Position numbers and translations under genes: made by a program
The notes under the pieces: generated by a model
Database searches by the model: none
Told to the model about the DNA's origin: nothing
The model's input: only the letters and a program-made list of their open reading frames with translations
NCBI GenBank assembly: GCA_051362555.1
Contig: CM120642.1
Location: 4,030,001 to 4,094,000 of the forward strand
Reading direction: 5' to 3'
DNA from: Lingula anatina
Lineage: Eukaryota; Animalia; Brachiopoda
Length of the DNA: 64,000 nucleotides
Shown here: positions 29,086-56,000 of the stretch, piece after piece
Layout of the letters: each line of letters begins with the position of its first letter
Position numbering within the stretch: the first letter of the stretch is position 1

Positions 29086-32000
29086 TTAATCTGACAGAAG
29101 AACTAAACATTTTGTACATAAAGTTTACATCCAAAATGTAGTCCGTACCGACAGGATGACCTAGTGGTCTGCGTTTTTGCCTCCAGAGTGGGAGGACGTG
29201 GGTTAGGGGCATACCAGGCAAAAAAGGTATAAAGGGCCTGGTCTGGGCAGTAAAAGATAATGTTTGTACGGCACCTCATACATGGGCCTCGGATTTATGA
29301 GCGCGAACGCCGAATTAACGTCTCAAAGCGCCATATCTTGGCAGGAACGCTTAATTAGGGGAAACCTAAAAACCACAAACCGTTATTCTGCTTAACTAAC
29401 CATGGTTTTGTAAATGCATCATGTAGCAGCAGCTATCATGTCAAGCTTATTGACACGTAAGATTCACATTCTTTTTCTGTAAAATCATTTCATTAAATTA
29501 ACAAAATATATTGATCAATTTTCATTATAATATACCTGTTCTGTACGTACCGAATGCATCGAGGATTACAGAGAGCGCATGGCTCCCGTATCAGTAAGCG
29601 ATGTGAATAGTATATAAATGCATTAGTTTAATTTGTGTTAATGTTTCTGTATTCATTTTCTTTATTTTTTAATGATGAATTTAACCTAAAAACAATTGTG
29701 TTGTGATGGAAAAAGTCATTGAATTCATTTTACTTGTATCCTCACCACTTACAAACGCTTCGTTGCGGCACGGCCCAGTATTTAAGTATGTTACGGCAGC
29801 CGTAACATACGTGGATGGTTTTATTGGGCAAATGATGAGTTTGCAGCTGCAGTCATAATAGGATGACGTCATTAATAAAAACGAAATGAGCATTACAGTG
29901 ACGGAGAAATTAAGAAGTAACATTATTCCATTTTGATTTAGAAATTAAAACGTTGAAACCAACTGGCTTTTCTCCGGCGTAGCGTTTTGCGTTGGATTTA
30001 CGCCGGCACAAATCTACCCCTAACCTACGACCGGGTGGTGCAGCTGGGCCCTGTATTTTTGTACTTAAAGTATTTAAAGCTTTGAATGACCACTGTAGTA
30101 ACATCATCTCCTCATCGCATTCTGCCAATAAAGAAACCATGGTTTGGGTTAATAATTTTGTGTTTGAACTCACAGATCCGAGGGTATATATCACAAACAG
30201 CAATTACGGTTTATGAGGCCTCATGTGGCAGCTGGGCTGTATCAACACCACAGAAGTGGTAACATCTGCACGCAGCATGTGGATTTTGGAACGGATAGAG
30301 GAACGGATTACACTTTTTTCACTTGTACAACCTGGCTTATCGTTTAACAAAAGACTAACCCTTCAAAGTTGGGAGACCAACCAGTGTTAATAAAACCAAC
30401 AATGATATATATTACATTTAAGACGACAACGTACCTTCTGATTCGCTTTCACGTGGGCTTGAACATATGGATACCATTTTGAAAGCGAATACACCATGTT
30501 GTTCGAGCATTGAGAAATTTCCCTGGATCATACAAAGGTTTATTAGATTTATAAAAGCCATAAAACGCTTGTGCGGGAATTGCAAGAAAATTATACACAA
30601 ATACACAAAACATATACATAATTTGTCAAACCATAAAATGTGTAATACCAAGACAGAGACCTAATATAAGGACTTGTGAAATGAAAGACATTACCTTAGG
30701 CTGACCCCAACCATCTGTGTCGACCTGATGTATTTCTTCTATAACAGGTGGATAAATAAGTGACAAATTTATTGACCAGCTACCTTAAAAAGTAGTCTCA
30801 AGCAGAAAGTAGTTTTAATGATATAGGCTATTATATACACAGTTGACCTAAAGTTGTACATTGGCAAATGCTTCCAAACAGTTGAAATATAATCAAAATT
30901 AAGTATATTATTAAATTGATCGCCTAACTTTATACATACAATAAATACAAAAGCTTTCAAGCTATGACGTGGGGAAACACATCATTATTATGTACTAACC
31001 GCAACTTATAAGAATCGATGAATAAAAACAAGAGCCATTCTCATCATCCTCTTTCGCATCATCAGTACCTTCACAGATTGTTGTTTTATCAAAACCTGAA
31101 AAATATCACACGGTGCCTTTTTGATATATATGGAGACAGAATTAAAAAAAAATATTATTCCTTCAAAGACTTTTTGAACTGTAAATATGCAAGAGAGTAT
31201 TTACAGTAAACCGTTTGAATCATAGACGACATACCCGTGGCATATTTGGCGCCCTTAGCGGTTAGTGCACCTATGAACTGCTCGAAGCTCTGAACCTTTT
31301 TGTTGGCATCAAACTTGTGTTCGTCGTTGTCTTCAGGGTGACAGGGCAGCGGTCTCTCCATTGGGACATTTACCTGGGTAATACGAAGATTTGATAGCTT
31401 TCAATCATGAAAATGCTTGCGCAGAAATGGTTAGAAAAATTTACACAGATACACAATTGTTAAATCGCACACAAACATTACCTCAGCTTGACCCAATTTC
31501 TGAATCTTTTCCCAACCATCTGTGTCGACTTGGGATATTTCTCCTATAATAGTTGGATAAAATAATTTAAAACAATAACGTGCTGTACACATTGATTGGA
31601 ATAATACTGCAAGCAGAAAAAACGATTTCAGTGACACAAACTATTATATACACAGTTGATTTCATGCAGATTGTACATTCTCAATTGCTTCTAAGCCGTT
31701 GAAATATAAGCACAATTTAGTATATTATTAAATAAATCGGCTAATATTATACATAAAACAAGCAATAAAAAAAAACATTCTAGCTTTGACGTGGGGAGAT
31801 GCAGCATTATTACTTGTACTGACCATGAATTGGTATGTGTAAAATCACCGAGTTGACGCAAGGTCCATTCTCGTCATCTCCAAAATTTGTTATTTCATCA
31901 AGACCTGAAAAAGTATCACACGAAAACCTGTTTTATATATTACGAAGACAAAATAAACAATATCGTTAAATAAGTGGTACAGCTCAAACATGGTTGAAGT

Positions 32001-53000: not shown

Positions 53001-56000
53001 CTGTATCTTGCCATATTGGAGTAAGTCAGGAATAACATTTGCTGTACATGTACAAGACCAACAATACAGTTCCATGGTATAGCGGTTTTATACTCATTAG
53101 TCACATTATAAGTAGACCAGGCATTATAAGTACCCAAGATCTGCCTACTTTTATTACTCTGAGTTAGGGGGTGACACTTCTTTTGTCCAGTGTGTGTACA
53201 AACAAACTGGTCGCACGCCTTTAATTTCACATTTCTTAACTTAATGTTTGAAACAATCTACATTCTTTTTCTTTTAACATTTCCTCGATTATCCATAAAA
53301 AACTATTATCCCCAGATGTATTTTACAAACCACATATAATGACACCATGTTAGATGGAAACTCGATTGGGGTTCGACTCAATTTTGTCTTCTTGGTGAAG
53401 AATTCTCAGAACTTTTAAACGATATGGTCACTTAAAATTTGAGAAACAAATCCCGAAGATAGAGGGCATGATTAGGCATTGAAATAGAAGAACACTAACC
53501 CCTGTTGGTAGAATTATTATCTTAAAAACATATGCTGAACCATCTTTTCATTTCTCATTCAAACCCAGACCCAATATTCATCAAAAAATTAAAATTCCCT
53601 TTTTTACCAATTCATTGGGGTAGCAAACTTGATAAGGTAAAGAGAGATCAGATAGTAAAAGATTATGAATATGACGTTTTGTATAGAGTTGTAAAAGGAT
53701 TATTACCGTGTTTGTAACCTTAAACATTTATTAATTGAAAAACAGTAAAAATTTTTCTTAGTAGGGGTTAGTTGTCAGAGAATTCAGCTCTCCTGGGTGT
53801 GGAGATCAAAAGGAGAGAGAGAGGAGAGTCGGGGCCATGCGGTGTGTCACTGTTTCAGACAGTGTGCGGAGGCGTTTTAAGCACTGGACGTTGTAGTTAG
53901 TAGATTTATTGTAGGAAATGACTGTGCTGATGTTCCGTGGACTGCAAACAATGCTTTGATACCATAAATGCACCAAGTTACGACGTATTGAAGTCGCGCT
54001 TTTGGCGAGTCATATTTAAGAAAATACACTATCGGTCTACATAAAAAAAACGTTTCCACTTCCGTCCGTCTTTAAGTAAATTCATAACGGCATTAAAATG
54101 TACATGGATAAGAAGACTATACTTTAAAGATATCGGAAGATCTACTTATGAACGGCTTGGAGTGGGCAAAAAAATTCACACGAATACAGACGAAATTAGC
54201 AGAGAGTCCATGGAATTGTCCAATCGTTTACTTATTAGCGATAGAATAGATAGAACGCAGGCTAAAGACGCTTTCAAAACACTGAAGGATCATAAAGAAA
54301 ATTTCCCCAATGATATCAAATGCAGACCTATAAATCCGACAAAACCAGAAATGGGGAAAGTAAGCAAGGTTATCCTTGACAGGATAAATAGCGACGTTAG
54401 ATCAAAGACAGGTTTGATACAATGGAGAAGCACAAATGAAGTATAAGAATAGTTTAACAACCTTTACAAAAAAAAAAAAAAAAAAAAAAAAAACACTTAA
54501 GTTCATTTTGTTCGACGTCGTGGATTTTTATCCCTCTATATCGGAAGATCTACTTATGAACGGCTTGGAGTGGGCAAAAAAATTCACACGAATACAGACG
54601 AAATAAGCAGAGAGTCCATGGAATTGTCCAATCGTTTACATATTAGCGATATCAAGACCCCCCTCCTTCGGTTTCTGAAAAATATATTACACCAATATCT
54701 CCTCTTGAAATAAGAATTTTGACCAGCTAAATCATAGTTCGAATTTTTTTTGGGCTTTTTAGCCGGCCCCAAACCTTACGCCAAGAGGGGTTGGGGGGAA
54801 GGGGAGGGACAGTTCGCACGGTGGACCCCCCTTCAAATAATCCTGGAATATATGTGTATATATATATATATTTTCCATTTTGCTTAAGTTGAACGTTTTC
54901 CATTGCTCCTAAACCGTTGACATATTAACAAACTGTGGTATATTTTATCAAATTAATAAGTCAATATTACTTACACTGGGTACAAAAAATAATGACAAAA
55001 ATAGCTTAGTGGAATACGCATAATTTTACTAACCCTCAGATGGTAGCTTAGAAGTCTCCGATTCAAAACAAGCCTCGTTCTCAATATCTTCTTTAGCATC
55101 ACCAGCACGTTCACAGTTCACGTCTTTAAGTCCGGAAACAAATAAAAAGCACGACATCGAGTTTTATATTTCAGAGAGACAAAAAAAAATATTTTTCACA
55201 AATACTTGCTCTAACTGTTGCTCAATTTAAATAGACTCTTTTTTTATGAATATGCACGTATAAAAATGATACACCGTAAAGCTTGTTTATCATAAGCGAT
55301 CTACCAGTGTGATATTTAATTTAAAGAATACAAATCAGAAACTTCTTAACTTTAACTGATAGCATTACACTAAATCAGATCTACTTACAATTCATTCCAC
55401 TGGGGACAGAACGGCAAACATTTAAGTACTGTCCTTTGTCAATTTCCACGCCAACAAAGATGTCTTCCCAGTCAGCCATTTCCTTCATGGGGATGGTCAC
55501 AATGGTATCTGTCAACATATTCGAAAGGTCTCCAGACAGATAGTCGTTCCACATCATTTCTAATGCTGATCTCGTTGTGAATCTGAGTGTTAACCGTAGG
55601 CAACCCCGCGCAGCTTTTATTAACGTGGCATTATATCTCTTGACGAACACACGAGTTGCACGTTTTAAGGCTCGTGTGTCAGTGAGGGCTGTTTCAGTGA
55701 AGTGTCTGTCCAAGGTTTCGTTAATTGCTCCAGTCGCATAGGAACGAATATCCAGTTTGACGTCAAGATCTGTTGCCAAAAATACTATTAGTACAGATAA
55801 TACGCATTGGATCTTTTACTCTGTAGGGATAAAAAATAAAAGGCTTACCTGTAATTCAAAGTCACATTTTCTTGTAAATTTGATAATATCTGTTGTTGTT
55901 ACCATACATGCTCCTCACAGCTCTATCAGCTTATGGAAACTACTTGTAGAAACACATTTACACAAGAAATATATGCTAGAAATAAGATGCTATTCTACAT

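What the first reader, a model, noticed from the sequence alone, without database searches (positions are those of the whole stretch)
30435..55123. Hierarchically amplified, frame-preserving micro-exon cassette array on a death-fold signalling gene
Seen on the minus strand: three recurring exon types. A (phase 1-0): GETSQTKTDIWG.., GEISQVDTDGWEK.., EEIHQVDTDGWGQPK. B (phase 0-1): INFTKDRPL..DDNKHKFD.., VNLPMERPL..DNDEHMFD... C (phase 1-1): GFDKT.IC..TDDAKEDDENG.CF, GLDEITNFGDDENGPC, and VNCERAGDAKEDIENEACF at 55123. An old A-B-C triplet was doubled and then triplicated with the 8-9 kb unit, giving more than 20 exons with GT/AG ends; those I translated are open. Each A+B pair and each C is phase-symmetric, so they can be skipped in frame. 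A further A-type exon (about 50662, 42199, 33183) is phase-incompatible with its neighbour and would have to be used alternatively. Inference: a copy-number- and splicing-variable tail on a DED/TRADD-N adaptor, a candidate immune or cell-death diversification system. This is the best candidate for a new system in the window.
Basis: partly seen in the sequence, partly recalled or inferred. Interest (0 to 1): 0.8.

Follow-up and report, generated by a model that had tools for sequence, protein, structure and literature searches.

The report
Repeated exon tail on death-domain gene
A likely brachiopod cell-death adaptor gene is followed by 24 small open-frame exon copies made by repeated tandem duplication, which likely add a repetitive protein tail; no transcript of this locus was found, so the proposed splicing-based immune diversification is untested.

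Summary
The exons are real. Minus-strand 55123-30435 holds 24 AG/GT-bounded open exons of three types behind a DED + TRADD-N gene whose only close relative found is Lingula anatina XP_013411363 (DEDD2-clade TRADD-N expansion). Frame retention across old copies exceeds neutral simulation (joint P 5e-10 to 1.5e-4); recent copies show a mild synonymous excess (8 of 17). Corrections: they are not micro-exons (44-139 nt); the register is C-A-B, tripled long ago, then the central block triplicated; the last B copy is frameshifted against the others; a relic B donor lies upstream of the first C. The diversification claim is not supported. Phase symmetry is what any tolerated internal duplication needs, recent copies encode nearly the same peptides, and the relative ends at the TRADD-N stop (314 aa; window read-through form 310 aa). 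In five RNA runs no read matched this locus at 99% or better. One run held a diverged relative's transcript but no cassette reads. Best reading: a known immune-adaptor family member that gained an acidic repeat tail by exon-triplet duplication, likely with short and long forms. Combinatorial splicing remains possible but unshown.

The parts
59300..59394 (-). Exon 1, ATG at 59338, ends phase 0
   Evidence: joint 59300-57721 in 3 reads of a diverged relative in run X7
57677..57722 (-).
   Evidence: candidate; joints in the relative's reads
56892..57155 (-). DED exon (1-1)
   Evidence: Pfam DED E 4.2e-05, 24.1 bits, under the 35.9 cut-off; 50% to P0001
56646..56702 (-). Basic linker exon (1-1)
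   Evidence: no aligned hit to P0001
56363..56500 (-). Helical linker exon (1-1)
   Evidence: 50% to P0001 140-185
55389..55769 (-). TRADD-N exon (1-1); reading through its GTAAGT donor gives a stop two codons on, then ATTAAA at 55320
55272..55317 (-). Relic 3' end and donor of a B-type exon (B0)
   Evidence: 36 of 46 nt identical to the B1 end and intron start
55034..55123 (-). C0 (1-1), homologous acceptor lost, weak in-frame AG used
51803..53198 (.). Tc1/mariner-like element in the C0-Ap intron, 31-bp perfect terminal inverted repeats, transposase broken
   Evidence: family name from recall of the ORF motifs
50609..50661 (-). Ap, unit 1 (1-0; incompatible with A1)
50266..50425 (-). Relic of a DED exon start with acceptor, 79% to 57065-57227; coding part present only in unit 1
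49974..50053 (-). A1, unit 1
49054..49186 (-). B1, unit 1
48823..48903 (-). C1, unit 1
48486..48547 (-). A2, unit 1
48239..48377 (-). B2, unit 1
47912..48013 (-). C2*, unit 1
42147..42199 (-). Ap, unit 2
41686..41765 (-). A1, unit 2
40797..40929 (-). B1, unit 2
40566..40646 (-). C1, unit 2
40222..40283 (-). A2, unit 2
39975..40113 (-). B2, unit 2
39652..39753 (-). C2*, unit 2 (identical to unit 1)
33131..33183 (-). Ap, unit 3
32705..32784 (-). A1, unit 3
   Evidence: no RNA read
32055..32187 (-). B1, unit 3
   Evidence: listed variants and loose ends of the repeat reads begin at 32219-32225, outside this exon
31824..31904 (-). C1, unit 3
   Evidence: no RNA read
31482..31543 (-). A2, unit 3
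   Evidence: no RNA read
31235..31373 (-). B2, unit 3 (4-5 residues differ from units 1 and 2)
31000..31095 (-). C2' (84% to C2*)
30695..30738 (-). A3
30435..30522 (-). B3, frameshifted against B1/B2, open to a new donor
29910..30121 (-). Guessed last exon (69 codons to stop, AATAAA at 29825); unconfirmed
   Evidence: strong acceptor score; the few reads at 29782-30077 carry mismatches and lie on both strands

Best explanation
This is a DED + TRADD-N gene, likely of the brachiopod DEDD2-clade expansion, followed by a tandemly duplicated three-exon unit that likely encodes a repetitive acidic tail spliced mostly as a fixed chain. Shown: six head exons; 24 open cassette exons; an old triplication of C-A-B (introns about 72% alike); an intermediate event (C2*/C2' and the DED relic, about 80%); recent 8-9 kb duplications (0.7-3.7% apart). 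Inferred: the TRADD-N exon was joined to an already existing array, cutting off a B0 exon whose donor survives. The gene then likely has two outputs: a 310-aa form by reading through the TRADD-N donor to a stop and nearby ATTAAA, as in the annotated relative, and a roughly 1050-aa form when the donor splices to C0. The DED would bind DED partners such as FADD or caspase-8-like proteins (family knowledge); the tail would be a flexible low-constraint extension whose length changes by unequal crossing-over. Phase symmetry is the filter that lets such duplications survive, not proof of skipping. Ap is likely a mostly skipped duplicate or an occasional substitute for A1.
For: Relative with the same head and the same end point; family described as constant Death-like + TRADD-N with variable flanks (PMC8195603 section 11). 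Unbroken 1047-aa path through every cassette except Ap. Frame kept in old copies; T2 vs T3 dN/dS 0.28, Fisher p 0.007. Recent units: no exon indels or stops, 8 synonymous of 17 changes, P 0.011-0.056. B0 relic 36 of 46 nt. Tail D+E 0.20 against 0.13 in the head; bulky hydrophobics 0.22 against 0.31. No Pfam family for the cassette peptides tested (B1, B2, C2*, A1), and no homologue or Atlas hit for B2.
Against: No read supports the long form: 0 reads on the unit-3 cassette exons in 4 runs, 45 million reads, and 0 on C0; but the head was also not seen at 99% or better, so the locus may be silent or absent in those animals. The relative expressed in X7 shows no cassette reads. Two of three old comparisons have dN/dS about 0.85, not different from 1 (p 0.54, 0.81). 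Exons are not less diverged than introns among recent units (Fisher p 0.44, 0.27, 0.09). C0 and all A acceptors are weak. The last exon is a guess. The charge-hydropathy rule puts head and tail on the same side, so disorder of the tail is not shown.
Confidence: 0.45

Rival explanations
1. The gene ends at the TRADD-N stop. The array is the remnant of a formerly coding region, cut off at B0, now silent or decaying and amplified passively with segmental duplications.
For: The relative ends at the same position; ATTAAA 60 nt after the stop; both ends of the array are damaged (B0 relic, C0 acceptor lost, B3 frameshift). X7 reads of a relative cover the TRADD-N exon to its last bin (depth about 7) and none reach C0 or any cassette. 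No database protein carries B2 (1 candidate, none scored). At 1-4% divergence open frames are expected even without selection.
Against: Synonymous excess among recent copies; a consensus GTAAGT donor in the phase C0 needs; C0's replacement acceptor and B3's replacement donor both keep phase.
Confidence: 0.27
2. One reading: regulated or stochastic skipping of C exons and A+B pairs, with Ap/A1 as alternatives, makes many tail isoforms that tune or diversify death signalling.
For: 122,000 phase-compatible paths exist on paper; Ap fits only in place of A1 and gives an open 1020-aa path; A acceptors are weak, as alternative exons often are (general knowledge); the family is known for variable C-terminal parts.
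Against: No transcript evidence. Only 11 exon types and 15 distinct peptides among 24 exons. No dN/dS above 1 in pooled comparisons. No inverted repeat linking the Ap/A1 flanks to an upstream intron. Ap-A1 introns are 346-555 nt, too long for steric exclusion (coordinates; threshold from recall). No recognisable binding domain in the cassettes tested.
Confidence: 0.15
3. Not exclusive of the others: one recent unit is an assembly artefact (two haplotypes placed in tandem), so the real array is shorter.
For: Units 2 and 3 differ by 0.7-0.8% in spacer and introns, within a plausible allelic range; a 99.7% inverted duplicate lies nearby.
Against: No N in the window; unit 1 differs by 2-3.7%; the unit 2-3 spacer has a private insertion of about 760 nt. 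The old triplication is unaffected either way.
Confidence: 0.13

Closest known systems
DEDD2-clade TRADD-N lineage-specific expansions (Kaur et al. 2021, PMC8195603); Lingula anatina XP_013411363.1
   Same: DED followed by TRADD-N; 75% identity in TRADD-N, 50% in DED; same stop position; transposons nearby, as the paper notes for this clade.
   Different: The listed Lingula C-terminal parts are named domains (vWA, HEPN, helicase, WWE, coiled coil and others; places 2-61 of 77 in supplement file 4). Here the putative tail has no named domain and comes from internal exon-triplet duplication. The paper works at protein level and proposes retrotransposon-driven fusions.
Schistosome micro-exon genes (MEGs)
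   Same: Many small phase-symmetric units that could be skipped in frame.
   Different: MEGs are mostly very small symmetrical exons with shown alternative splicing and a signal peptide (PMC4350168; 3-81 bp per the abstract start of 10.1101/2023.06.21.545858). Here exons are 44-139 nt, A and B are individually asymmetric, the head is a cytosolic-type adaptor, and splicing is unshown.
Insect Dscam mutually exclusive exon arrays
   Same: Exon copies made by tandem duplication; Ap/A1 is a possible either-or pair.
   Different: Dscam includes one variant per array (PMC1397879). Here 21 of 24 exons join in series in frame, and the repeating unit is a triplet.
Ordinary internal repeat expansion by phase-symmetric exon-block duplication (mucin-, titin- or LPA-kringle-like; recalled, not looked up)
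   Same: A phase 1-1 block duplicated repeatedly, near-identical recent copies, open reading in series.
   Different: The host is a death-fold adaptor, and the head can end before the array.

Membership tests
DEDD2-clade TRADD-N expansion | TRADD-N (RRM/ACT-like) domain | tested here: met
   Pfam PF20694 E 4.9e-4, 20.3 bits, under the 23.7 cut-off; model pLDDT 91.6, top of 48,161 chains is TRADD-N 1f2h, Z 6.9, rmsd 4.5, 105 aligned, next 5.5; 75% to a listed member
DEDD2-clade TRADD-N expansion | N-terminal Death-like domain (usually DED) | tested here: met
   Pfam DED E 4.2e-05, under cut-off; 50% to the DED of P0001, which carries PF01335
DEDD2-clade TRADD-N expansion | Placement in the DEDD2 clade by phylogeny | not tested
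   Taken from the paper's label for the 75% identical relative; no tree built
DEDD2-clade TRADD-N expansion | Variable C-terminal effector domain | tested here: inconclusive
   No Pfam family in 4 cassette peptides or the guessed last exon; the peptides are short and were scanned singly
Micro-exon gene (MEG) | Coding region mostly of very small, individually symmetric exons | tested here: not met
   44-139 nt; only the 7 C exons of 24 are symmetric on their own
Micro-exon gene (MEG) | Transcript variants by exon skipping | tested here: inconclusive
   No reads of this locus
Micro-exon gene (MEG) | Signal peptide, secreted product | tested here: not met
   The N-terminus is basic and runs into a DED; judged by eye, no predictor run
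Dscam-type mutually exclusive array | One variant included per array | tested here: inconclusive
   Only Ap/A1 need be exclusive; the rest read in series; no RNA
Dscam-type mutually exclusive array | Docking/selector RNA pairing (recalled feature) | tested here: inconclusive
   No such inverted match at E up to 1 in 28400-57300; short pairings would be missed

The most novel reading that the evidence does not exclude
A cytosolic death-fold adaptor whose tail is tuned both by copy number of an 8-9 kb exon block and by combinatorial skipping, with a switch between a tailless 310-aa form and long forms. The tail carries four copies of VDTDG, resembling the caspase-8 site LQTD of Bid, so it would act as a variable-dose caspase substrate or decoy next to a caspase-recruiting DED. 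That would be an intracellular, exon-array-based diversifier of invertebrate death signalling.
Probability: 0.1. Interest if true: 0.75.

Novelty: new variant of a known kind. Interest (0 to 1): 0.36.

Why it matters
Invertebrate DED/TRADD-N families are known to gain variable C-terminal parts (PMC8195603), but mostly from protein lists. This locus shows at DNA level one way a tail can be built: joining to an exon array (relic donor still visible), then layered tandem duplication. If long reads showed many isoforms it would be a new kind of intracellular immune diversifier; on present evidence it is an instructive case of exon-block repeat expansion. Three paper searches found no description of such an array in this family; the library lacks most subscription papers, and one supplement file of PMC8195603 was not searched and another was cut.

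Tried and rejected
No whole genome is held, so paralogues with the same cassettes and copy number could not be searched. The look-up of sequencing runs: no RNA holder listed; 9 raw runs offered by species label, 5 laid. Runs X1, X4, X5 gave 0 reads on the head (no test). Reads at 32225-32430 are an intronic dispersed repeat (all only partly on the stretch), not exon evidence. Idea that B derives from the end of the TRADD-N exon: anchored alignments not significant (36-152 of 1000 shuffles reach the score), although the relic donor at 55305 is in phase with that exon and has 3 stops before it; left open. Homologues of B2: none (Atlas no usable hit); short queries make these weak. TRADD-N search at near length: 12 candidates, none scored. 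All 37 representative hits against the window matched only head exons. Positive selection: not found; individual A pairs with dN/dS 1.0-1.6 rest on 14-20 codons. Docking-type pairing: none (one search was swamped by an AT microsatellite). A recalled resemblance of B to Schlafen AlbA_2 motifs had no Pfam support. Earlier scan findings: none returned. No complex prediction was run.
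Full report
Setting. The window is animal DNA (36% GC, no N) and no whole genome is held. The exon at 55769-55389 finds one close protein among those of 222-2000 aa: Lingula anatina XP_013411363.1, 314 aa, 75% identical. 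The other 36 hits at 50% clustering are 26-38% identical; the five of them that carry a name are from amphioxus and corals. I therefore infer a lingulid brachiopod; the species is not shown.

Head of the gene. Six minus-strand exons: 59394-59300, 57722-57677, DED 57155-56892, 56702-56646, 56500-56363 and TRADD-N 55769-55389. Exon 2 and its joints are confirmed only by reads of a diverged relative (3 reads per joint, run X7). Pfam DED and TRADD-like_N hits are under their cut-offs, but the modelled exon (pLDDT 91.6) has TRADD-N 1f2h as top match (Z 6.9, rmsd 4.5, 105 aligned; next 5.5). Kaur et al. 2021 (PMC8195603; passages, section 11 and supplement file 4 places 1-61 of 77 read) list the relative as DED+TRADDN-DEDD2 within a brachiopod expansion (33 in the text, 31 in the table) of constant Death-like + TRADD-N parts with variable flanks. 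The relative ends where the window's exon, read through its donor, meets a stop; that form is 310 aa with ATTAAA 60 nt on. Whether the relative also has a donor there is unknown.

The array. All peptides named in the finding are present. There are 24 open exons of 44-139 nt. DNA homology shows an old C-A-B unit in three copies, C0-A1-B1, C1-A2-B2 and C2'-A3-B3, with introns 66-79% alike. The central block, with an extra A-type exon Ap and a C variant C2*, is present three times at 8.3 and 9.0 kb spacing, 0.7-3.7% apart.

More than chance? Yes. Exon lengths within each type differ by multiples of three (C 81, 90, 96, 102; A 44, 53, 62, 80; B 133, 139), B3 to its homologous end being the exception, whereas 8 of 47 old-intron indels are multiples of three. 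Simulated neutral survival per exon is 0.06-0.15 (strict) or 0.15-0.52 (any AG/GT within 15 nt), jointly 5e-10 to 1.5e-4 (a crude star-tree model). Amino-acid constraint is weak: pooled dN/dS 0.84, 0.28 and 0.86, only the second below 1 (p 0.007). Among recent copies I count 8 synonymous and 9 non-synonymous changes, P 0.011-0.056 by transition bias, with no exon indels; total exon divergence does not differ from intron divergence. So the exons were coding for most of their history and probably until recently.

Expression. No RNA holder was listed; raw runs with the same species label were laid instead. On 28450-32860 (88% likeness, runs X1, X2, X4, X7, 45 million reads) no read fell on cassette exons; the only deep signal is an intronic repeat. 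On 54900-59500 (80% likeness, X1, X4, X5, X7) three runs gave nothing and X7 gave 36 reads, none at 99% or better (1 at 95-99, 18 at 90-95, 17 under 90), i.e. a relative; they cover the head, reach the last TRADD-N bin, and none lie on C0; no joint or loose end is listed at 55389. The locus's own splicing is therefore untested, and the only expressed relative seen shows no cassettes.

Mechanism. Joined in series without Ap, and with a guessed last exon at 30121, the exons give 1047 aa; Ap with A1 stops at 373; Ap instead of A1 gives 1020 aa. Phase symmetry is required for any internal duplication to be tolerated, so it does not argue for skipping. The 24 exons give only 15 distinct peptides of 11 types, so the 122,000 paper paths would vary mostly in length. 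I favour a fusion of the DED-TRADD-N head to an exon array, expansion by unequal crossing-over, and likely short and long products (0.45), over a silent remnant (0.27), combinatorial splicing (0.15) and partial assembly artefact (0.13, not exclusive). VDTDG occurs four times (A2 three times, A3); it resembles Bid's caspase-8 site LQTD (abstract start of PMC12319900), but the shuffle probability is 0.038 and the motif was picked after the fact, so it is a lead only.

Comparison and verdict. The head is a member of a described family. The array fails the micro-exon-gene definition (PMC4350168 passages) and is not Dscam-like in layout (PMC1397879 passages). Searches found no account of such an array on a TRADD-N gene. 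New variant of a known kind; interest 0.36, rising to about 0.75 if long reads show a spliced, variable, caspase-cleaved tail.

Noticed in passing
window 16901-20483 and 24841-28429: 3.6-kb inverted duplication at 99.7% identity that takes in part of a UDP-glycosyltransferase gene (Pfam UDPGT for 21117-22088); a very recent event or an assembly artefact.
   Followed up: no
window 3468-4858 and 51803-53198: Two 96% identical Tc1/mariner-like copies with matching terminal inverted repeats.
   Followed up: partly
window 47719-47771 and 39459-39511: A 19-bp perfect hairpin (z -7.5, 0 of 200 shuffles) just where C2*'s homology with the other C introns ends; C0's homology ends at the same relative place. 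Possibly a rearrangement scar or element end.
   Followed up: partly
window 32225-32430 (copies in the A1-B1 introns): Short dispersed repeat abundant in RNA of all four runs laid, always as part of other transcripts.
   Followed up: partly
window 54045-54651: Retroelement-like ORF fragment and a 114-nt direct duplication (54130-54243, 54538-54651) in the C0-Ap intron; element type from recall.
   Followed up: no
window 6100-11100, minus strand: Gene with long exons of beta-propeller-like character (weak WD40 hit, E 0.038), a predicted membrane segment near 7000 and PPxY-like motifs near 6300 (by eye).
   Followed up: no
window 14757-15905, plus strand: 382-codon ORF with a C-terminal CC190-like match (E 1.8e-05, under cut-off); exact sequence from the first ATG not in the protein collection.
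   Followed up: partly
run X7 reads on window 54900-59500: An expressed relative about 85-95% alike in DNA whose loose-end letters at 56463 translate close to, but not the same as, P0001, suggesting a third member or allele of this subfamily.
   Followed up: partly
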